From Thermococcus kodakarensis KOD1 (GTDB taxonomy: Archaea; Methanobacteriota_B; Thermococci; Thermococcales; Thermococcaceae), in assembly GCF_000009965.1 (NCBI RefSeq), contig NC_006624.1:1933989-1957988 (forward strand): a stretch of DNA of 24,000 nucleotides, read 5' to 3'. The notes below the pieces were generated by a model. The model did no database searches, had not been told where the DNA came from, and saw only the letters and a list, made by a program, of their open reading frames with translations. Below, piece by piece: positions 1 through 7,994 of the stretch. Within the stretch, counting starts at the first letter, position 1; the number at the start of each line of letters is the position of its first letter. Position numbers and translations under genes: made by a program.

Positions 1-1111
1 CCTCCGGGTACTTCTCGAGCGTCTTGGCCAGGAGTTCAGCGGCGGGCTTTATCTCCTCCTCGCTCCAGTGGCCGGTGACTACTATGTCATACTTGGCCAG
101 CCACTCCCACTCCCTCGGGACGACGCCGAAGGGTGAAGTCAGTATCAGCTCGTGAACCTTGGAGGTTCCCGAACCGAGTGCCTCTTTCACGGCCCTTCTG
201 TAAAGGGTGTGGCTCCTTGAGAAGGAGTAGGGTTTTTTCGCGGAGCAAGGGAAGAGCAGGAGGAGTTCAACGTTCTTGGGCGGTGTGAAGCGCTCAAGCA
301 CGCGCTCGTGCCACCTTTTGACCTCGGGCCTTCTGATGGATGCATCGCTGATGAAATATACCGTCTCCTTCTGGATTGGAGTGTATTTCTCAAGATAATC
401 TGGGTGCTCAAGGTCCGCTATTCTCAGAATTCCAGCGTTGTACTGGGTCGGAAAGAAGTTTTCTACTAGATACCTCAGCTTGCCCTCTTCAAGGGCCTTC
501 CTCACGAGCAGTATGACTTCGCGGGCGAAGTCGAGGGAGTTGGGCTCGTTGCTCCAAAGGAATGGAGAGAACTGGGTGAATCCCTTACCCTCGAAGTCGT
601 AGAGCTTGAGAGAGCGGGTATCGAAGGCATCAATGCCAAGATAAACCGCCAGCGGGTAGAAGAACGGCTCAAGGTCGGCTATAATCATGACGTTCGGGAA
701 CCTCTCGCGGAGTTCCCTTAAAATCCTCACGAAGTAGCGGTACTCCTTGATTAGAATTTTCGAGTTGCCGAGGTAGACGGCATCGAAATTGTGTCTATCT
801 ATAATCTTGAAGAACTCCTCAAGGTACTCCGTTCTTCTCAGGGCAGGAAGGTAGAAGGCGTTGAAGCCATCGTAGTTTACACTCCACAGCCTCCCGATGG
901 CCTTCTGGATTACCTCATCGGGAGTGTAGAACCCGAGAGGTATCGAGGGAGCGAGGTTGAAGTCGTACTCGCCCGGCTCTTTGGGATGGAAGAAGGAGTT
1001 GAAGGGAGACAGGGTAAAGTCTATCCCGACTAACGCGGGAGTTCTGAAGGAATAATCCCCTAGCCTGACTACCCCAAGCCTTCCGGGTCCTTCGTGTTTG
1101 ATGACTTCCAT
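1..1111 (-). CDS. arcS: Archaeosine synthase ArcS (TGT-like / DUF5591 protein). N-terminal ~370 aa only; the 3' end runs off the left edge of the window
   Basis: My own minus-strand translation from the ATG at 1111-1109 gives MEVIKHEGPGRLGVVRLGDYSFRTPALVG... and stays open to position 2. It is missing from the ORF track because it has no stop in the window. Residues 288-301 (FPCSAKKPYSFSRSH, nt 209-250) match the ArcS signature PC-X3-KPY-X2-S-X2-H as I recall it from the literature. Confidence 0.8.
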   Translation of the reverse strand, partial: MEVIKHEGPGRLGVVRLGDYSFRTPALVGIDFTLSPFNSFFHPKEPGEYDFNLAPSIPLGFYTPDEVIQKAIGRLWSVNYDGFNAFYLPALRRTEYLEEFFKIIDRHNFDAVYLGNSKILIKEYRYFVRILRELRERFPNVMIIADLEPFFYPLAVYLGIDAFDTRSLKLYDFEGKGFTQFSPFLWSNEPNSLDFAREVILLVRKALEEGKLRYLVENFFPTQYNAGILRIADLEHPDYLEKYTPIQKETVYFISDASIRRPEVKRWHERVLERFTPPKNVELLLLFPCSAKKPYSFSRSHTLYRRAVKEALGSGTSKVHELILTSPFGVVPREWEWLAKYDIVVTGHWSEEEIKPAAELLAKTLEKYPE

Positions 1112-1120
1112 AGCGATTCC

Positions 1121-2026
1121 TCAGACGAGGTTGTACCTCTGCAGGAGCAGGAGCTCGTCGAGGGTGAGCTTCTCGCCGCGCTTGAACTTCTCGAGGGCTT
1201 CAACTGCCTTCTCGAAGTTGGCGTCCTTCTTGGCGCGCATCTTGGCGACAAGACGGTAGGCGATGAGCTCCTTGTGCTTCTCGTCGTACTCCCTGATCTT
1301 CCTCTCGATCTCCCTGAGCTGCTTCCTGGCTTCCCTGACCTTCTCGCGGAGCTCGACGACCTTCTGGTGGTACTCGTCGGCCTCTTTCTTGACCTCGTCA
1401 GCCTTGTTGAAGGCCTGAATCATCTGCTCGTGGAACTGCTGGCTCTGGTTGGCGAGCTTCTGTATCTCAAGGCTGATGGCTTTCCTGGCCTTCTTGAGCT
1501 GGTCTACCTTTTTCCTCGTCTCAACGAGCTTCTTGTGGAACCTCTCAGCCTGCTGGATGATCTCAAGCTCGGTCGCGAGAACCTGTATTTGGTCAACGAT
1601 CTGCTTCTCCCTCTCTGGAGTTATGTTCGGGTTGGTCTGGAGCTCCCACTCAAGCTTCTCGATCCTCTCCTGTATCCTCTCGGGGGACATCTTGAGCCTC
1701 CTGAGCTGGTTGTACTCGTTTCTCTTGGTCTTGTACTCGAGTATTTCCTGGTAGAGGAGGTCAAGCTTGGCGTTGATCTCCTCGCGGTTCTTCTTAAGCT
1801 CCTGTATCTTCTGGTTTATTTCATCCCTCTTCGCCTTGTACTCGCGCCCCTTCTGGCGGAGCTGCTGTACTTCCTTGTTCTTTTCATCCCTCTTTTGAAT
1901 CCAGACCTGGAGCTCCTTTTCGAGCTCATCCAGTTTGGCCCTGATCTCGTTTCTCTCCTTTTCCAGGGCCTCAATCTCCCTCTTGATCCTCTTAATTTCC
2001 TCTGGGTCTACTTTAACCGTTGTCAT
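1121..2026 (-). CDS. Archaeal coiled-coil protein (COG1340-like), function unknown
   Basis: 301-aa ORF, extremely E/K/R/L/Q-rich with heptad-like periodicity (MTTVKVDPEEIKRIKREIEALEKERNEIRAKLDELEKEL...). It ends 10 nt upstream of the arcS start, so the two are probably co-transcribed. On the minus strand a TTTTTATTTA-like TATA lies roughly 60 nt upstream of the ATG. Confidence 0.7.
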   Translation of the reverse strand: MTTVKVDPEEIKRIKREIEALEKERNEIRAKLDELEKELQVWIQKRDEKNKEVQQLRQKGREYKAKRDEINQKIQELKKNREEINAKLDLLYQEILEYKTKRNEYNQLRRLKMSPERIQERIEKLEWELQTNPNITPEREKQIVDQIQVLATELEIIQQAERFHKKLVETRKKVDQLKKARKAISLEIQKLANQSQQFHEQMIQAFNKADEVKKEADEYHQKVVELREKVREARKQLREIERKIREYDEKHKELIAYRLVAKMRAKKDANFEKAVEALEKFKRGEKLTLDELLLLQRYNLV

Positions 2027-2263
2027 CTCTCTTACCCCTCTCCCTTTTTAGAACAGCTCTGTTCACTTCGGACATCTGGACTGGAAATTGAGAGAGTAAA
2101 TAAAAACTTTTTGGATGATTCGGCGGTATTGTCTTGAGCACGATAGATTCGTTTCCCTTTTGTTTGATGTAGCCAACTCTGTAACAGCGAATTCTACAAA
2201 AGTCTTCAAAAACATTCAAAATTGAGACAGAATAATGGTAAAACAAAAAACTTTGCTCCAAAT

Positions 2264-3340: not shown

Positions 3341-4603
3341 TCAGAGGTACCATTCGGAAAAGCTTCCAAGTCCGAGCCTTTCAAGGGTCTTCATGACACC
3401 GAGGGCTATACCCTCGACCTCTATCCCGCCGGGTAGCTTGTAGGCATCGCCGACGATGTAGATATCCTGAATCGGGAAGTCCTCAACGGCCTGCCCGCTG
3501 GCGACCCTGTTGACAGGATTTCCGTCGAGGTAGGTCTGGATGAGCAGGATCTCGCCCTCTTCATCGAGGTTAGGGAAGATTCTGTAAATGTCGTCTATGC
3601 CCTTCTTCTGCTCCTCCTTAACGTTCCTGCTCTGAAGGGCATGGTGGAGCATTATGAGGGTGTATCCCTCTGGAGCGAGCTCCGGGCTTAGAGCTGTTGG
3701 CTCATTATAGCCGTTTATTCTCTCAGTATCGAGAGTGAAAACGACGGTGTTCCCGATCCTTGATTCTCCTTTCAGGGCGACGTTGTACTTTATCCCCTCG
3801 CTCGGCTTCAGAGACTCAACGTGCCTGAGGTATTCCCTATCGAAATTCTCCCTTCCGAGGAGCTCAACGGTCTCCTTGATGCCGATGTTCGAGATAAGGA
3901 CATCGTAAGGAAACTCCTCGTTGTCGGCCGTCACCACCTTCTTTGCCTCGGCATCGACTTCAACGGCCTTCTTCCCCGTCAATATTTTTCCGCCGTTTTC
4001 CACCACAATTCTCGCAAGCTCGTCGGTTAAGGCCTTACAGCCGCCTCTGACGAGTCCAGGGCCGCCCCACTTTAGGGCCGCTTTAATCTCCCTGGCCAGC
4101 TCTCCAGCAGGTACATCCAGCACGCTGTCGGCCCAGCCGAGGAAGCTCTTGATGAAGAGGTCGGTGAACTCGTTGTCGCCTATCTTTTCCTTAATCCACC
4201 CGCGCCCGCTCATCTCGGCCTCTTCTCCGGTCGGGAGCTTGTTTCTCTTTATGTCCGCCATCAGTTTCATCGCCCTGGCTTTCTCCTTCCAGCCGAGGTA
4301 CTTCCAGCCCTCGCGGTAGTGGAAGGTCTTGCCCTCGTAGAAGATCATGCCCTTTGGGTTGGAGTTCACTATGGTGACGTTCGCACCGAGGAGTTTTAGG
4401 AGGTGTGCCAGTGGGCCGTCTTCGCCGTGAGGGAGCATGTGAAAGGCTCCCGTTGAGAGGCCGAAGCCCTTGTAATTCAGATTTGTGAAGCGGCCGCCGA
4501 TATAAGGAGCTTTTTCAAGAACCGTGACATCGTAGCCTTTCCTGGCTAGAAATCCAGCTGTCAAAAGCCCGCCGATTCCAGAGCCAATAACCACTGCCCT
4601 CAT
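3341..4603 (-). CDS. FAD/NAD(P)-binding oxidoreductase, phytoene-desaturase-like (COG1233-type); substrate unknown
   Basis: The track ORF runs 3341..4681, but the likely start is the internal ATG at 4603-4601 (MRAVVIGSGIGGLLTAGFLARKGYDVTVLEK, a GxGxxG Rossmann dinucleotide-binding motif). It is preceded by a GGTGG ribosome-binding site (minus strand: caggtggtagaATG). The 26-codon extension has no ribosome-binding site. Confidence 0.75.
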   Translation of the reverse strand: MRAVVIGSGIGGLLTAGFLARKGYDVTVLEKAPYIGGRFTNLNYKGFGLSTGAFHMLPHGEDGPLAHLLKLLGANVTIVNSNPKGMIFYEGKTFHYREGWKYLGWKEKARAMKLMADIKRNKLPTGEEAEMSGRGWIKEKIGDNEFTDLFIKSFLGWADSVLDVPAGELAREIKAALKWGGPGLVRGGCKALTDELARIVVENGGKILTGKKAVEVDAEAKKVVTADNEEFPYDVLISNIGIKETVELLGRENFDREYLRHVESLKPSEGIKYNVALKGESRIGNTVVFTLDTERINGYNEPTALSPELAPEGYTLIMLHHALQSRNVKEEQKKGIDDIYRIFPNLDEEGEILLIQTYLDGNPVNRVASGQAVEDFPIQDIYIVGDAYKLPGGIEVEGIALGVMKTLERLGLGSFSEWYL

Positions 4604-4778
4604 TCTACCACCTGAAATGCCAAGGGTGAGGAAAAATATAAGGGTTTGGCCGTTGTATGGATGTACAACTCCTTTACTCATGCTTCTTTTGATCCGTTCT
4701 AAGAAGAAAACTTAAGTTTTAATAATTTTATACCTCAAAAAGAGAATAAAATATGGTTAGCAAAAACAAATAGAAAAA

Positions 4779-4788
4779 TTTATAAATA
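4779..4788 (+). promoter_or_regulatory. Candidate archaeal TATA box (TTTATAAATA) with an A-rich BRE-like flank, serving the small ORF / rSAM operon
   Basis: gaaaaaTTTATAAATAtaag lies about 45-55 nt upstream of the GTG at 4833. A start site about 25 nt downstream would give a ~20-nt leader that contains the Shine-Dalgarno site. Confidence 0.45.
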
Positions 4789-4832
4789 TAAGTTGTTCAA
4801 AATATATTGCAAAAACTTAAGGAGGTGATAAC

Positions 4833-4937
4833 GTGGAGGAATTGATTGTGCTAGAGAGGGGAGCATTCGGCTTCAACGAGCCAAACTTTTTCATCTGCGG
4901 GAGCTTCTGTAACCCTGTGAAGGATAACCCGAACTGA
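4833..4937 (+). CDS. Unlisted 34-codon ORF: candidate RiPP precursor peptide MEELIVLERGAFGFNEPNFFICGSFCNPVKDNPN (GTG start)
   Basis: GGAGGTGA (4821-4828) is a full anti-16S Shine-Dalgarno site 4 nt upstream of GTG 4833. The frame is bounded by an in-frame TAA at 4818-4820 and a TGA at 4935-4937. The ORF is about 50% G+C (hand count 52/105) inside an otherwise very AT-rich intergenic region. It lies 66 nt upstream of a radical SAM/SPASM gene and has two Cys (CGSFC) in its C-terminal half. Confidence 0.5.
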   Translation: MEELIVLERGAFGFNEPNFFICGSFCNPVKDNPN

Positions 4938-4942
4938 TGGGG

Positions 4943-4967
4943 TTTTATCTTTTTATTTTTAAATTTT
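4943..4967 (+). terminator. Oligo-T tracts (T4, T5, T5, T4): candidate archaeal termination or attenuation signal after the small ORF. May also serve as an A/T-rich promoter element for the rSAM gene
   Basis: ggTTTTatcTTTTTaTTTTTaaaTTTTg follows the TGA immediately. Archaeal RNA polymerase terminates at oligo-T runs. Confidence 0.4.
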
Positions 4968-5003
4968 GAACTACTAAACTACTGAAAATGGGGGTGGAGA
5001 AAT

Positions 5004-6335
5004 ATGAAAAATGTTAAACTCTCGAGATATACTCTCGCTGTTCCATATCAGGGACGTATAATACTATTTAATACCCTTTCACGCTCATTAGTTGCTATTT
5101 CAGAAGATGCTTGGAACAGGCTTAAAAATAGTATCAGCAATGCCAACGCTGATATTGACAATGGAACTCTTAATGATAGCCTAATTAAAGAACTAACCAC
5201 TTTGGGATTTTTGATACCTTCCCAATTAGATGAAAAGGAGCTAATGAGGACTCATGTGAATGTTCTAAAATATACTCCAACACACATGGGAATGTTTGTG
5301 AACTTAACTTCAAGATGTAATCTCTCCTGTCCTTATTGTTACCAAGACTTAAGAAAAGCTTTAGACAGTAATCAGGATTTAACAACTGATAGCTGGAATA
5401 GAATAATGAGACTAATAAACAAGAGGATAAACATTCTGAGAAATGTCAATGTTGTGTTCTTCGGAGGAGAACCAATGTTGAATTATAATACTCTAAAAGT
5501 GGCAGTAAGAGATTTAGATTCTTTAAAAGAAATCGGCATTAAAACCTCTATGTCCATAATAACTAATGGGACGTTATTTTCCAAACAAAGAGCCCAGGAG
5601 CTGGCACCCTACATTAGCTCGGTTCAAATTACTTTGGATGGAATGAAAGAGACGCATGATAAAATGAGGCCATACTCTGATGGAAGTGGAACCTTTGATA
5701 TCATTCTAAAAAATATTATCGATAATATTGACCAATATCGGAAAAGAATTATATTAAGATCAAATATAAATGATGATAATATCGCCAGTGTCAAGTCCTT
5801 ATTACACTATTTGAAAGAAGAATACGGGCTTCACAAGTTACTAAAAGGAGTTGGTTTTGAATACATATTCCCAACTCAAACGTCGATACATGTAGGTGAG
5901 AGCTATAAATTAACCCAACATATTTCAAAACTACTAATTGAGATTTATTCCTACGCTGTGGATTTGGGGTATTCCATAGGAAACCCCCTAATACTTGGCC
6001 CATGTATGGCAAACCATGCCTTTAGTTTTGCAGTGGATGAACAACTAAATGTTTATAAATGCCCAGGCTTTCTATATTCAAATCCGGATGGATACATTGA
6101 CGAAGAAGGCAATCTTGTCATCACAAGTTCTAGATGGTATTCTTTAATAAACTTCGAGCCACCATGTGCTCTCAATTGTAAATTTGGCCCAGTATGCTAC
6201 GGAGGATGCAGATGGATGGCCAGTTCATCAAAGTCCAAAATTTCCTGTAATATAGAGCACCTACAGAATTACAGCGAATTTTTAGCACTTTATGTTAAGT
6301 CAAGATATAAAAAACTTCTGGAGGGCGAAGGATGA
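5004..6335 (+). CDS. Radical SAM enzyme with a C-terminal SPASM-type auxiliary Fe-S domain and an N-terminal extension of ~95 aa (candidate peptide-recognition element); putative peptide maturase
   Basis: 443 aa. The CNLSCPYC motif (C105/C109/C112, nt 5316-5339) is CX3CX2C, and FFGGEPML is the SAM-binding glycine motif. The C-terminal seven Cys are C334, C353, C388-X3-C392-X5-C398-X3-C402 and C415 (nt 6003-6248), which is SPASM-like. A GGTGGAG ribosome-binding site sits 4 nt upstream of the ATG. G+C is much lower than in the neighbouring genes. Confidence 0.85.
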   Translation: MKNVKLSRYTLAVPYQGRIILFNTLSRSLVAISEDAWNRLKNSISNANADIDNGTLNDSLIKELTTLGFLIPSQLDEKELMRTHVNVLKYTPTHMGMFVNLTSRCNLSCPYCYQDLRKALDSNQDLTTDSWNRIMRLINKRINILRNVNVVFFGGEPMLNYNTLKVAVRDLDSLKEIGIKTSMSIITNGTLFSKQRAQELAPYISSVQITLDGMKETHDKMRPYSDGSGTFDIILKNIIDNIDQYRKRIILRSNINDDNIASVKSLLHYLKEEYGLHKLLKGVGFEYIFPTQTSIHVGESYKLTQHISKLLIEIYSYAVDLGYSIGNPLILGPCMANHAFSFAVDEQLNVYKCPGFLYSNPDGYIDEEGNLVITSSRWYSLINFEPPCALNCKFGPVCYGGCRWMASSSKSKISCNIEHLQNYSEFLALYVKSRYKKLLEGEG

Positions 6336-7240
6336 ACGTGATAGAAATTGACAACCTCACCAAGGTGTATCCCGACGGCACAAAGGCCAACGATGGAATC
6401 TCAATCCGCGTCAGGAAGAATGAAATTGTTGGGATCATCGGTCCCAACGGTGCTGGAAAAACCACGCTCATACGACAGCTTCTGGGGCTTTTGAAGCCAA
6501 CGGAAGGCTCAATCAGGGTGATGGGAAGGGACATCGTGAATAACCCAGATATTGTAAAAAGAACCCTTGCCTACGTGCCTCAGTATCCCCTCAGCTTTCC
6601 CTCTTTGAGGGTTGAGGAGGTTCTGGAGTACGTCCTCAGGATGCGGGGCGAAAGCATTTCACCAGCCGAGATGGGGAAGAGAATATCGGGTGTTCTAGAG
6701 CTCCTCGGTCTCAGTGGGGCGGCAAAGTTCTTCGGGTATCAGCTCTCGGGGGGTATGAAAAAGTCCCTGCTGCTGGCGATGGCCATCATTCAGGAGCTTC
6801 CGGTCCTCGTGCTGGACGAGCCCACGAGCATGGTGGACATCGTTACAAAGCACCGGCTGTGGGATGTAATAAGGAATTCAAACCGGGAAGGAATTCTCCT
6901 CGCCAGCCACGACATGAACGAAGTAAAGGCGCTCTGCGACAGGGTGTACCTCCTCGTTTATGGAAAGATAGTGACCTCCGGCACTCCCGCGGACATAGTC
7001 TCGATGGTTAAGATGCCCACCGAGGTTCGTTTAATCCCCGGGAGGGAGATACCCCAGAGCATCCTCCCCAAGGAGCACAAAAAACGCGGAGACCTCTACG
7101 AGCTGGCCTTCGACACGCTTGAGGATGCATTGCGGACTGTGGATGCAATCCTCAAAAGTGCGGGGGTGTCCTACCTCGAGATTGAGTCCCCCTCATTTGA
7201 GAACCTCGTGATAAACCTCATCGGGAGGGATGGCGAATGA
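6332..7240 (+). CDS. ABC transporter ATP-binding protein (ABC-2 / DrrA-like exporter type)
   Basis: 302 aa with Walker A GPNGAGKTT (nt ~6440-6466), signature LSGGMKK, Walker B LVLDEPT and H-loop ASHD. The start overlaps the rSAM stop (ATGA at 6332-6335), indicating translational coupling. Confidence 0.9.
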   Translation: MNVIEIDNLTKVYPDGTKANDGISIRVRKNEIVGIIGPNGAGKTTLIRQLLGLLKPTEGSIRVMGRDIVNNPDIVKRTLAYVPQYPLSFPSLRVEEVLEYVLRMRGESISPAEMGKRISGVLELLGLSGAAKFFGYQLSGGMKKSLLLAMAIIQELPVLVLDEPTSMVDIVTKHRLWDVIRNSNREGILLASHDMNEVKALCDRVYLLVYGKIVTSGTPADIVSMVKMPTEVRLIPGREIPQSILPKEHKKRGDLYELAFDTLEDALRTVDAILKSAGVSYLEIESPSFENLVINLIGRDGE

Positions 7241-7884
7241 TTCGTCCTCTAATTGGGATGGAGCTTAAGGGAATGCGGCTCTACAGGACGTTCCTCTTTG
7301 TCAACCTCCTGCTCATGCCCTTCGCCTTGCTCTTTATGATGCTCATGAACTCCAGCTCGAGAACTCCGGAGGACATCTCTTACCTGGTGAGCGGCTTTAT
7401 CGTTGTTTCTCTGGTTAGTTCTTTCCTCGGAACGCTAACGAACAGGGTCAGCAATGTCTTCGAACCCAGTGTTCTTGAGCTTTACTCAACACTACCCCCA
7501 AGAATATCAGCGGTAGTCCTCGCCCAGTTCCTCACTTACTCCCTGCTGGTCCTCCCCCAGGTGCTCCTGGGTCTCGCGGTTATCGTTTACTATCAGGGAA
7601 CTAGCAGAATAAACATCCCCCTTCTGATTCTGGCACTTTCATTAACTTTCCTTGAGCTGGGGGCGCTTGCGGTTTCCATAGGTGCGAAGATTGGAAACCC
7701 CTACAAGGCGATGGCCGTCACGGGAATACTGCCCTGGCTCCTCGTGGTGTTCTCCCCTGCCTACTACCGCTCCAGCTCCCCTGTGCTCTACCTGAACCCC
7801 ATTACTTTCCTGTTATCATGTATCCGCTCGACCATTGGACTGCAGAGCGTGAGCCCTACCCCCTGCCTGTTTCGATGGCTCTAA
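7237..7884 (+). CDS. ABC-2 type transporter permease, apparently truncated or frameshifted at the C-terminus
   Basis: 215 aa with five clear hydrophobic helices and an NP-containing motif (YLNPITFLLSCIRSTIG) typical of ABC-2 permeases. ATGA overlap with the ATPase gene at 7237-7240. The expected sixth helix is encoded in a different frame (7851-7952); see findings. Confidence 0.8.
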   Translation: MIRPLIGMELKGMRLYRTFLFVNLLLMPFALLFMMLMNSSSRTPEDISYLVSGFIVVSLVSSFLGTLTNRVSNVFEPSVLELYSTLPPRISAVVLAQFLTYSLLVLPQVLLGLAVIVYYQGTSRINIPLLILALSLTFLELGALAVSIGAKIGNPYKAMAVTGILPWLLVVFSPAYYRSSSPVLYLNPITFLLSCIRSTIGLQSVSPTPCLFRWL

Positions 7885-7994
7885 CAGGAGTTTTCCTGCT
7901 CTTTGCACTCAGAAGTCTGCGTTCCGGCTATATGCTTGAGAAACCATTTTAATTTCTCTTTTCATTAATGGGGAGAAAGGAAATAAAACGGCGG

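What the first reader, a model, noticed from the sequence alone, without database searches (positions are those of the whole stretch)
4833..4937. Unlisted 34-aa ORF with leader/core-like organisation and a CxxxC pair
The peptide is MEELIVLERGAFGFNEPNFFICGSFCNPVKDNPN. The ORF is below the length cutoff of the supplied track.

Evidence for coding seen in the sequence:
- A perfect GGAGGTGA Shine-Dalgarno site lies 4 nt from the GTG.
- G+C is about 50% (hand count 52/105), while the flanks are far more AT-rich.
- T-tracts follow the ORF directly.

The N-terminal half (MEELIVLERGAFGF) is charged and aliphatic, like a leader. The C-terminal half (NEPNFFICGSFCNPVKDNPN) holds both Cys, three Phe, two Asn-Pro dipeptides and one Asp. 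Asp, Asn and other residues are known acceptor sites in ranthipeptide and sactipeptide chemistry, so acceptors are available near the Cys donors. The start codon is uncertain, because TTG 4842 and GTG 4848 are in-frame alternatives.
Basis: partly seen in the sequence, partly recalled or inferred. Interest (0 to 1): 0.8.

Follow-up and report, generated by a model that had tools for sequence, protein, structure and literature searches.

The report
Unannotated archaeal radical-SAM peptide precursor gene
The 34-codon ORF is a real, unannotated gene in Thermococcus kodakarensis that most likely encodes the precursor of a cysteine-cross-linked peptide, made by the radical-SAM enzyme next door and exported by the adjacent ABC pump; the precursor family is widespread but not in Pfam or NCBIfam.

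Summary
The window is Thermococcus kodakarensis KOD1. ORF 4833-4937 (+) encodes MEELIVLERGAFGFNEPNFFICGSFCNPVKDNPN behind a 10-nt Shine-Dalgarno site.

It lies 66 nt upstream of TK2160, a radical-SAM/SPASM peptide maturase with an RRE-like N-terminal domain. TK2161 and TK2162, an ABC-2 exporter, follow.

The same four-gene cassette (peptide, rSAM, ABC ATPase, ABC-2 permease) recurs in other Thermococcus, Alkaliphilus, Bacteroidales and many metagenomes. Every maturase homolog of at least 33% identity with readable upstream DNA has a cognate peptide. All four peptide-first look-ups landed upstream of a TK2160 homolog.

About 30 peptides share the motif [IV]VLExG-x5-EPNF-C-x1-3-FC[NS]P[VI]. KOD1 versus a 91%-identical ortholog shows 10 synonymous changes and 1 conservative change (dN/dS 0.014). 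The GTG start is ATG in orthologs, and indels are multiples of three.

There is no Pfam, NCBIfam or Rfam match and no RNA-structure signal.

Best reading: a RiPP precursor whose Cys22 and Cys26 are cross-linked, probably as thioethers, by TK2160. The chemistry is inferred, not shown.

This is a new member of a known kind. The gene is unannotated in a genetically tractable hyperthermophile. Interest is moderate to high.

The parts
4772..4789 (+). Archaeal promoter-like element: purine-rich BRE (AGAAAAA) plus TATA box (TTTATAAATAT). The transcription start is predicted near 4809-4811.
   Evidence: Read directly from the sequence. The core GAAA[A/G]ATTTATAA is invariant in KOD1, the Thermococcaceae MAG L001 and T. 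henrietii, while the surrounding intergenic DNA diverges. The TSS position is inferred from usual archaeal TATA-to-TSS spacing and was not measured.
4820..4829 (+). Shine-Dalgarno site AGGAGGTGAT, ending 3 nt before the start codon.
   Evidence: invariant in all three Thermococcus loci. Complementarity to the 16S rRNA 3' end rests on my own knowledge.
4833..4889 (+). Proposed leader of the precursor (residues 1-19, MEELIVLERGAFGFNEPNF), with the family motifs VLExG and EPNF at fixed spacing.
   Evidence: Alignment of 29 family peptides. The GTG start corresponds to ATG in orthologs. The leader/core boundary is inferred.
4890..4937 (+). Proposed core (residues 20-34, FICGSFCNPVKDNPN) plus the stop codon. 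Cys22 and Cys26 are the probable modification sites, and FC[NS]P[VI] is the family signature.
   Evidence: Only 3 synonymous differences from L001 across this stretch.
4938..4975 (+). T-rich tract (T4, T5, T5, T4) preceded by a weak CCC/GGG stem. Probably a leaky archaeal terminator between the precursor and the maturase.
   Evidence: T-richness is retained in L001 and T. henrietii, but the sequence itself is not. The function is inferred.
5004..6335 (+). TK2160, a radical-SAM/SPASM peptide maturase of 443 aa. It has an N-terminal RRE-like domain, a CX3CX2C motif at C105/C109/C112, and seven SPASM Cys.
   Evidence: Pfam Radical_SAM and Fer4_12. Best NCBIfam models are RiPP maturases, all below cut-off. 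100% identical to a KOD1 protein. The AF2 model has pLDDT 90.9. Best fold matches are CteB, TigE, SuiB and anSME. Cys conservation is shown.
6332..7240 (+). TK2161, an ABC transporter ATPase of the DrrA type. Its start overlaps the maturase stop.
   Evidence: It is co-conserved with the maturase in all cassettes.
7237..7952 (+). TK2162, an ABC-2 permease. The ORF ends at 7884 in the window. The last 27 aa of the ortholog are encoded in another frame at 7869-7949, with the frame switch at a C5 run at 7857-7861.
   Evidence: Other KOD1-derived assemblies call a 238-aa product.

Best explanation
ORF 4833-4937 is a translated gene for a 34-aa RiPP precursor. It is the first gene of a four-gene cassette: precursor, TK2160, TK2161, TK2162.

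The proposed mechanism has five steps. All five are inferred; what the data show directly is listed under evidence for.

1. A BRE/TATA promoter and a strong Shine-Dalgarno site drive high expression of the peptide. T-tracts after the stop codon attenuate read-through into the enzyme gene.
2. The leader segment ELIVLERG...EPNF is bound by the N-terminal RRE-like domain of TK2160.
3. TK2160 cleaves SAM reductively. The 5'-deoxyadenosyl radical abstracts a hydrogen from an acceptor residue, and Cys22 and/or Cys26 forms an intramolecular cross-link. The cross-link is most probably a thioether of the sacti or ranthi type, assisted by the SPASM auxiliary clusters.
4. The ABC-2 transporter exports the product or protects the producer from it.
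5. The cassette reached Thermococcus by horizontal transfer.

The confidence of 0.8 applies to the gene being a translated precursor of TK2160. Thioether chemistry specifically is about 0.55-0.6.
For: Coding evidence:
- KOD1 versus L001 shows 10 synonymous changes and 1 conservative R->K change, giving dN/dS 0.014.
- The start codon is GTG in KOD1 and ATG in orthologs, and the Shine-Dalgarno site is invariant.
- Indels between KOD1 and T. henrietii are 6 nt long.
- A peptide profile retrieves about 20 further 29-42-aa proteins at E<1e-3 from 1.8 billion representatives.

Evidence for the precursor role:
- A cognate peptide lies 40-131 nt upstream, on the same strand, of every TK2160 homolog of at least 33% identity with readable upstream DNA: L001, L002, L003, L062 (three tandem copies), L142/143, L144, L146, L147 and L148.
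- All four peptide-first look-ups found a TK2160 homolog (29-91% identity) immediately downstream. Three of them also show the ABC pair; the fourth contig ends inside the rSAM gene.
- The motif was absent from all of the more distant rSAM loci L004-L141 (apart from L062) that were scanned.

Evidence on the maturase:
- Full-length matches to RiPP-maturase models: geopeptide 184 bits, CefB 173, TIGR04463 158, PapB 102, QhpD 90, SCIFF 75.
- The closest solved sequence is CteB, at E 6e-33.
- The AF2 model (pLDDT 90.9) has a three-strand, three-helix N-terminal domain, and its best fold hits are CteB, TigE, SuiB and anSME.
- CX3CX2C and seven SPASM Cys are conserved in 34/34 homologs.

Evidence for thioether chemistry:
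- The Cys of FC[NS]P is present in 28 of 29 aligned peptides (C. cuniculi L147 lacks it), and a second Cys is conserved.
- The nearest characterised enzymes by HMM score form thioethers: PapB, QhpD and CteB.

Other evidence:
- TK2161-2162 is transcribed and inducible, with log2FC 4-7 in iron-sulfide mineralisation cultures (PMC12827226).
- For horizontal transfer: the rSAM gene is 35.7% GC against 51.7% for the window; distribution is patchy; and the cassette sits in a different genomic context in L153.
Against: - No direct evidence of translation or modification was available. The published TSS tables are truncated in the held copy.
- The maturase is below the curated cut-off of every NCBIfam RiPP-maturase model. 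The peptide matches no Pfam or NCBIfam family, so the chemistry cannot be transferred by homology.
- The best structural match by TM-score is TigE, a cyclopropylglycine synthase that makes C-C bonds rather than thioethers.
- The spacing between EPNF and the first Cys differs in KOD1 (NFFIC) from most members (NFC), so a fixed Asn-Cys ring is doubtful.
- No protease is encoded in the cassette, so leader removal is unexplained.
- The permease ORF is frameshifted in this reference sequence, which could impair export in this strain.
Confidence: 0.8

Rival explanations
1. The ORF is a genuine precursor of TK2160, but the modification is not a thioether. Possibilities include a C-C cross-link, cyclopropanation of the conserved Val/Ile after CNP, an ether or aryl cross-link on the conserved Phe, or oxidation of Cys.
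For: The best TM-score is to TigE, a cyclopropylglycine synthase (TM 0.68), and SuiB, which makes a Lys-Trp C-C link, is also a top hit. RRE-rSAM-SPASM enzymes of one fold catalyse many chemistries (PMC11851443 and PMC10878394, listed). Phe and Val/Ile flanking the Cys are also conserved. The best-scoring HMM families (geopeptide, CefB, TIGR04463) are uncharacterised.
Against: Two Cys are the most conserved core residues. By HMM score, the nearest characterised enzymes are thioether formers: PapB, QhpD and CteB. The precursors lack the repeat motifs typical of cyclopropyl synthase substrates.
Confidence: 0.22
2. The ORF is translated but is not a substrate of TK2160. It would be a small regulatory or membrane protein, or an upstream ORF whose translation merely tunes TK2160 expression.
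For: The ORF is short, lies in the same frame and on the same strand as TK2160, and has T-tracts in between. There is no experimental link between the peptide and the enzyme.
Against: A regulatory uORF would not keep a specific amino-acid motif (VLExG...EPNFC..FCNPV) across Archaea, Bacillota and Bacteroidota while the nucleotides diverge. Three tandem copies occur in L062, which is typical of RiPP precursors. The maturase has a dedicated peptide-binding RRE-like domain.
Confidence: 0.04
3. The ORF is a chance reading frame inside a non-coding leader or an RNA element upstream of TK2160.
For: Many ORFs of similar size occur by chance in the window. The ORF is not annotated in KOD1 or T. henrietii.
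Against: dN/dS is 0.014, with 10 of 11 substitutions inside the ORF at third codon positions. Indels preserve the frame. There is no Rfam hit. The folding z-score is 0.04. Protein-level homologs were found by profile search.
Confidence: 0.01
4. The cassette is real but decaying or silent in KOD1, a horizontally acquired remnant. The peptide would then be made rarely or not exported in this strain.
For: The permease is frameshifted at a C5 run in the window. One KOD1-derived assembly has a split ATPase (L150). The composition is atypical.
Against: The peptide, promoter, Shine-Dalgarno site and maturase are intact and under purifying selection; maturase dN/dS is 0.094. Other KOD1-derived assemblies call a full 238-aa permease, so the frameshift may be a sequencing error. 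TK2161-2162 transcripts are strongly induced in one study (PMC12827226).
Confidence: 0.1

Closest known systems
CteA/CteB (thermocellin; SCIFF-type ranthipeptide system of Clostridium thermocellum, PDB 5WGG/5WHY)
   Same: Both have a short Cys-containing precursor next to an RRE-rSAM-SPASM maturase. CteB is the closest solved sequence (E 6e-33) and the top Foldseek hit. Both enzymes have a seven-Cys SPASM motif.
   Different: Identity is only about 18%. The SCIFF maturase model TIGR03974 scores 75 bits against a cut-off of 425. The precursor is not a SCIFF peptide: there is no NCBIfam hit, it has two Cys rather than six, and its leader motif is different.
NCBIfam geopeptide maturase TIGR04280, CefB (Cys-every-fifth) NF038107, and TIGR04463 rSAM/SPASM maturases
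   Same: These are the best-scoring full-length HMM matches (184, 173 and 158 bits, covering residues 5-415). They share the same three-domain architecture and pair with short Cys-rich peptides.
   Different: All three scores are far below the curated cut-offs (400, 600, 525). The peptide matches none of the curated precursor models. One search retrieved no paper on any of these families in its listed results (all 20 listed papers matched only the unrelated string 'cefb'), and I know of no published chemistry for them.
PapA/PapB (freyrasin) and QhpC/QhpD: Cys-to-Asp/Glu beta/gamma-thioether formers
   Same: They are the nearest experimentally characterised enzymes by HMM score (102 and 90 bits). 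A Cys donor lies within a few residues of an Asn/Asp/Glu candidate acceptor.
   Different: The alignment to PapB covers only the rSAM core (residues 99-279). There is no repeated CX3D motif. The conserved polar residues here are Glu and Asn of EPNF and Asn/Ser of FC[NS]P.
NxxcB (streptococcal NxxC peptides: Asn C-beta to Cys thioether)
   Same: The conserved N-F-C (or N-F-F-I-C in KOD1) resembles an Asn-x-x-Cys donor/acceptor pair. This resemblance comes from my own knowledge and was not tested here.
   Different: The spacing is N-x-C or N-x3-C, not N-x2-C, and it varies within the family. No sequence comparison with NxxcB was run.
TigE/TvgB cyclopropylglycine synthases (PDB 8VPO)
   Same: TigE gives the highest TM-score (0.68) and 20% identity to the AF2 model, including the N-terminal domain.
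   Different: Their substrates are repeat peptides (TIGSVS, TVGG) without Cys. In this family, the most conserved core residues are two Cys.
Subtilosin-like sboA-albA-albC clusters in Thermococcus celer and T. nautili (preprint 10.64898/2026.07.27.741052)
   Same: This is also an rSAM-modified peptide cluster with an ABC component in the genus Thermococcus. It is likewise interpreted as horizontal acquisition from thermophilic bacteria.
   Different: The precursor, maturase family and species all differ. KOD1 is not mentioned in that preprint, and the KOD1 peptide has no similarity to SboA.

Membership tests
RiPP precursor of an RRE-rSAM-SPASM maturase (generic class) | A short ORF on the same strand, immediately next to the maturase gene | tested here: met
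   The gap to TK2160 is 66 nt. Gaps are 40-131 nt in 9 other loci.
RiPP precursor of an RRE-rSAM-SPASM maturase (generic class) | Peptide and maturase co-occur across taxa in both search directions | tested here: met
   Starting from the maturase, 9 of 9 loci with readable upstream DNA have the peptide. Starting from the peptide, 4 of 4 have the maturase. The motif is absent from the more distant rSAM loci.
RiPP precursor of an RRE-rSAM-SPASM maturase (generic class) | The maturase has a CX3CX2C SAM cluster, a SPASM 7-Cys motif and an N-terminal peptide-recognition domain | tested here: met
   C105/C109/C112 and C334/353/388/392/398/402/415 are conserved. The AF2 model has a three-strand, three-helix N-terminal domain, and full-length fold matches include CteB, TigE and SuiB. 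There is no Pfam PqqD hit.
RiPP precursor of an RRE-rSAM-SPASM maturase (generic class) | The peptide is demonstrably post-translationally modified | not testable with these tools
   This needs mass spectrometry after co-expression, or analysis of the native peptidome.
Sactipeptide / ranthipeptide | Cys donor residues in the core | tested here: met
   Cys22 and Cys26. The Cys of FC[NS]P is present in 28 of 29 peptides.
Sactipeptide / ranthipeptide | An S-to-C-alpha (sacti) or S-to-C-beta/gamma (ranthi) thioether bond | not testable with these tools
   This requires MS/MS and NMR.
Sactipeptide / ranthipeptide | The maturase belongs to a curated thioether-forming family (SCIFF maturase TIGR03974, PapB NF047865, StsB, RumMC, GggB) | tested here: not met
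   Scores against cut-offs: 75 vs 425, 102 vs 340, 64 vs 625, 57 vs 720 and 58 vs 650 bits.
SCIFF peptide and other curated precursor families | The precursor matches the curated peptide HMM | tested here: not met
   No NCBIfam or Pfam family was matched at E<=1 (KOD1 peptide vs NCBIfam) or E<=10 (KOD1 peptide vs Pfam and six relatives); one relative gave a sub-threshold GluRS_N hit (E 0.014).
Geopeptide (TIGR04280), CefAB (NF038107) and TIGR04463 systems | The maturase scores above the curated cut-off | tested here: not met
   184 vs 400, 173 vs 600 and 158 vs 525 bits.

The most novel reading that the evidence does not exclude
The VLExG...EPNFC..FCNPV peptides could define a RiPP class with a cross-link type or topology not yet described. 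One example would be a very small Cys-centred ring on the invariant F-C-N-P-V element, possibly involving the conserved Asn, Phe or Val. It would be produced natively at 85 °C in a genetically tractable archaeon, and would be the first archaeal rSAM-modified peptide open to direct genetics. Its role might be in metal or sulfide stress rather than antibiosis, given the induction of TK2161-2162 during iron-sulfide mineralisation.
Probability: 0.2. Interest if true: 0.75.

Novelty: new member of a known kind. Interest (0 to 1): 0.58.

Why it matters
T. kodakarensis is the main genetic model for hyperthermophilic archaea, yet this gene is missing from its annotation. The enzyme next to it is labelled only as a conserved hypothetical radical-SAM protein.

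According to a 2025 survey (PMC12144867), archaeal rSAM RiPP clusters are predicted by genome mining, and the only archaeal RiPP products it cites as functionally characterised are two haloarchaeal lanthipeptides.

This finding supplies three things:
- a concrete precursor/enzyme pair that can be deleted, overexpressed and analysed in the native host;
- a precursor family with about 30 representative sequences, absent from Pfam and NCBIfam, spanning Archaea, Bacillota, Bacteroidota and many metagenomes, with a sharply defined motif suitable for building an HMM;
- a likely case of inter-domain transfer of a minimal four-gene peptide cassette.

A cross-linked peptide that is made and functions at 85 °C would also be useful as a stable scaffold.

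Tried and rejected
- **Published TSS data.** I looked for a published transcription start in Jäger et al. 2014 (PMC4247193). The held supplementary TSS and expression tables are truncated and contain no TK215x/TK216x entries. The sRNA table lists only genome coordinates. I could not convert these to window coordinates because the window has no tRNA anchor and the contig look-up did not return the complete-genome record.
- **Metagenome scan.** A scan with the maturase alignment used very general rSAM patterns. It returned mostly homologs of 22-33% identity without the peptide. Only L062 was informative.
- **Peptide-first homology search.** It worked after re-ordering the alignment.
- **Contig look-up.** P0023 (Marinitoga) is not on record.
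- **Literature searches.** TK2160 gave no hit. TK2161-2162 appears in one paper. The 'geopeptide/CefB' search returned only unrelated uses of the string 'cefb'. The small-protein and ribosome-profiling search found nothing for T. kodakarensis. 'Thermococcus' plus 'ranthipeptide' gave no hit.
- **RNA-element reading.** There is no Rfam match and the folding z-score is 0.04.
- **TK2159 as a cassette member.** I rejected this divergent FAD oxidoreductase as part of the cassette. It has host-like composition and is absent from all non-Thermococcus cassettes.
- **Subtilosin relationship.** I rejected a link to the subtilosin-like clusters reported in T. celer and T. nautili. The precursor and species differ.
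Full report
**1. What is in the sequence**

Window 4833-4937 (+) reads GTG GAG GAA TTG ... AAC TGA. It translates to (M)EELIVLERGAFGFNEPNFFICGSFCNPVKDNPN.

- AGGAGGTGAT lies at 4820-4829, so GGAGGTGA is 4 nt from the GTG.
- ORF G+C is 0.495 (52/105). The upstream spacer is 0.232 and the downstream spacer is 0.288.
- T4/T5/T5/T4 tracts follow the stop codon directly.

A 34-codon ORF by itself is not unusual. Nine ORFs of at least 20 aa overlap 4600-5100. The case therefore rests on context and comparison.

**2. Where the window comes from, and the neighbours**

The 443-aa ORF at 5004-6335 is 100% identical to a protein annotated 'hypothetical protein, conserved, radical SAM superfamily [Thermococcus kodakarensis KOD1]'.

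Three points fix the locus tags:
- The downstream genes are an AFOR-family enzyme and the class V FBPase.
- A 2026 paper calls Tk2161-2162 a drug/metabolite ABC transporter (PMC12827226).
- From my own knowledge, TK2163 is GAPOR and TK2164 is FBPase.

The order is therefore: TK2159 (FAD oxidoreductase, minus strand), the unannotated peptide, TK2160 (rSAM), TK2161 (ABC ATPase, whose start overlaps the TK2160 stop), and TK2162 (ABC-2 permease).

The exact peptide sequence is in the 15-billion-protein collection only from ENA metagenome calls, not from NCBI. Gene callers did not call it on KOD1-derived assemblies or on T. henrietii.

**3. The enzyme next door**

TK2160 matches Pfam Radical_SAM and Fer4_12.

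Against NCBIfam it aligns over nearly its full length with RiPP-maturase models. The scores are geopeptide maturase 184 bits, CefB 173, TIGR04463 158, Clo7bot 109, FlmE/OhkG 105, PapB 102, CcpM 101, QhpD 90 and SCIFF maturase 75. All are well below the curated cut-offs.

A profile of 34 homologs finds CteB (5WGG) as the closest solved sequence, at E 6e-33.

An AlphaFold2 model (pLDDT 90.9, pTM 0.89) begins with a domain containing strands 10-15, 18-23 and 28-33 and helices 34-45, 58-66 and 77-89 (plus short strands 4-6 and 70-72), which is the RRE-like arrangement. Its best PDB fold matches are CteB, TigE (TM 0.68), SuiB, anSME and ChlB.

C105/C109/C112 (CX3CX2C) and seven C-terminal Cys (334, 353, 388, 392, 398, 402, 415) are conserved in the family. 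This is the SPASM pattern.

TK2160 is therefore a three-domain peptide-modifying rSAM/SPASM enzyme of no curated subfamily.

**4. Comparative evidence that the ORF is a gene**

*Close orthologs.*
- A Thermococcaceae MAG (L001, maturase 91% identical) encodes MEELIVLEKGAFGFNEPNFFICGSFCNPVKDNPN with an ATG start.
- Across the 33 compared codons (start and stop excluded) there are 10 synonymous changes and one conservative R->K change. This gives pS 0.52, pN 0.013 and dN/dS 0.014, against 0.094 for the maturase itself.
- Meanwhile the flanking spacers have diverged with indels.
- T. henrietii (maturase 76% identical, same synteny between the FAD oxidoreductase and GAPOR) encodes MEELIVLERGSASFDEPNFCGVFCNPVKGGDNPN.
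- Its differences from KOD1 include one 6-nt deletion and one 6-nt insertion, both frame-preserving.
- The candidate alternative start GTG 4848 is GTA in both orthologs, so 4833 is the start.
- A BRE/TATA-like element (4772-4789) and the Shine-Dalgarno site are invariant in all three.

*Distant relatives.* Each of these loci has a short ORF 40-131 nt upstream of the maturase, on the same strand:
- Alkaliphilus transvaalensis (40%): MKKELFMVLEEGHIEFSESNFCVFCNPVQITH.
- A Bacteroidales MAG (37%): ...SSVIVLEKGTVFSHHEEPNFCGLCAFCNPIKGSAEMVH.
- L144 (58%): MEEVKEIVVLERGSSGFDEPNFCVFCNPVKN.
- L146, L147 (Clostridium cuniculi) and L148.
- L062 (33%), with three tandem copies of MEMEVFEEGSMGMDCVFCNPVC....

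*Profile searches.* A profile of these peptides retrieves further 29-54-aa proteins from two very large protein sets. About 20 are short (29-42-aa) representatives at E<1e-3.

*Reverse test.* I started from four peptides found by the peptide profile (P0100 by the word-indexed search, the other three by the representative search): P0100, P0113, P0109 and P0118. Each has a TK2160 homolog (91, 31, 32 and 29% identity) immediately downstream. The ABC pair follows wherever the contig continues.

*Negative control.* The motif was absent from all the more distant rSAM loci scanned.

**5. Anatomy of the peptide family**

The alignment of 29 peptides gives an 80% consensus of VLE.G, then five residues, then EPNF, then C, one to three residues, and FC.P followed by V or I.
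- The spacing from VLExG to EPNF is fixed in 26 of the 28 peptides that carry EPNF (L003 has a two-residue insertion).
- Some members carry a third Cys (CGLCAFC).
- The tail after P-V/I is variable in length and sequence.
- KOD1 and its closest relatives are slightly atypical. Two extra residues separate EPNF from the first Cys (NFFIC instead of NFC).

The conserved recognition region runs through EPNF.

**6. Is it something else?**
- No Rfam family matches 4600-5100 at E<=1.
- The predicted transcript folds no better than shuffled sequence, with z 0.04.
- No Pfam or NCBIfam model matches the KOD1 peptide or six relatives (E≤1 for the KOD1 peptide against NCBIfam, otherwise E≤10), apart from one sub-threshold GluRS_N hit (E 0.014) to the Bacteroidales peptide.
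- A purely regulatory uORF would not keep an amino-acid motif across two domains of life while synonymous sites saturate.

**7. Most likely mechanism**

What is shown:
- The ORF is under strong purifying selection as a protein.
- It is co-inherited with an RRE-rSAM-SPASM enzyme and an ABC-2 exporter as a four-gene cassette. Identities of the three proteins fall in parallel across loci.

What is inferred:
- The leader (ELIVLERG...EPNF) docks on the N-terminal domain of TK2160.
- TK2160 uses SAM-derived radical chemistry to cross-link Cys22 and/or Cys26 to a nearby residue.
- The ABC-2 transporter exports the product or confers self-protection.
- The T-tracts act as a leaky terminator that keeps precursor in excess over enzyme.

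I favour thioether chemistry at about 0.55-0.6, for three reasons. The Cys are the most conserved core residues. The nearest characterised enzymes by HMM score are thioether formers. The seven-Cys SPASM pattern resembles CteB.

This is not a homology transfer, because every curated family cut-off is missed. TigE, a C-C bond former, is the best structural match. Other chemistry therefore remains a serious rival, at about 0.2.

No protease is encoded in the cassette, so the fate of the leader is unknown.

**8. Origin**

The stretch 4650-6300 is about 35% G+C in a 52% window. The cassette occurs in only some Thermococcus lineages. In L153 it sits in a different neighbourhood. The closest non-archaeal cassettes are in anaerobic and thermophilic bacteria.

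Horizontal acquisition is the simplest reading. It parallels a 2026 preprint that infers transfer of an unrelated subtilosin-like cluster into T. celer and T. nautili.

**9. Comparison with the literature**
- No paper in the held library mentions TK2160.
- A 2025 survey states that archaeal rSAM RiPP clusters are predicted, and the only archaeal RiPP products it cites as characterised are two haloarchaeal lanthipeptides (PMC12144867).
- TK2161-2162 is reported as strongly up-regulated (log2FC 4-7) in 72-h iron-sulfide mineralisation cultures (PMC12827226). This shows the operon's downstream half is expressed and regulated. TK2160 and the peptide were not discussed there.

**10. Verdict**

The ORF is a real, unannotated RiPP precursor gene in a model archaeon. 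It is the founding KOD1 member of a widespread precursor family, absent from Pfam and NCBIfam, that is paired with an rSAM/SPASM maturase subfamily of its own.

It is a new member of a known kind, not a new kind of system. The cross-link chemistry and the biological role are open.

Noticed in passing
window 4833-7884; also L143, L001, L153, L157: Base composition is mosaic within one operon. The rSAM gene is 35.7% GC (GC3 0.32). The peptide ORF (GC3 0.69) and the two ABC genes (53% GC, GC3 0.66-0.68) look host-like. The same gap between rSAM and ABC genes appears in T. henrietii, two Thermococcus-like MAGs and one bacterial locus (L157: 37.5% vs 51.6%). Identity ranks also disagree between genes: L001 is 91% identical in rSAM but 85% in the ATPase, while T. 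henrietii is 76% and 85%. This hints at recombination inside the cassette. It remains unexplained.
   Followed up: partly
window 7857-7952: The TK2162 permease ORF stops at 7884, giving 215 aa. The last 27 aa of the 238-aa T. henrietii ortholog are encoded in another frame at 7869-7949. The frame switch coincides with a C5 run at 7857-7861. Other KOD1-derived assemblies call a 238-aa product, so this may be a reference-sequence error or a strain polymorphism.
   Followed up: partly
L150 2329-3206 (Logan SRR29948418): One KOD1-derived assembly has the TK2161 ATPase split into 91-aa and 211-aa products. This suggests a frameshift variant, or an assembly error, in a laboratory strain.
   Followed up: no
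L062 2574-2926 (Ga0074197_1000286): Three tandem, nearly identical precursor genes (MEMEVFEEGSMGMDCVFCNPVC...) lie upstream of a 33%-identical maturase. They lack the EPNF motif but keep CVFCNPV.
   Followed up: partly
L156 10-1165 and L157 501-2183: In bacterial relatives the cassette sits next to regulatory genes. L156 has an AgrB homolog plus a 48-aa ORF (quorum-sensing-like). L157 has an ECF sigma factor and a zf-HC2 anti-sigma pair.
   Followed up: no
window 1094-2137 (+) and 1121-2026 (-): Two long ORFs overlap on opposite strands. The plus-strand ORF (347 aa) has no Pfam hit. In T. henrietii the syntenic gene is a minus-strand SDH_protease/NfeD-like protein, so the plus-strand ORF is probably spurious.
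   Followed up: no
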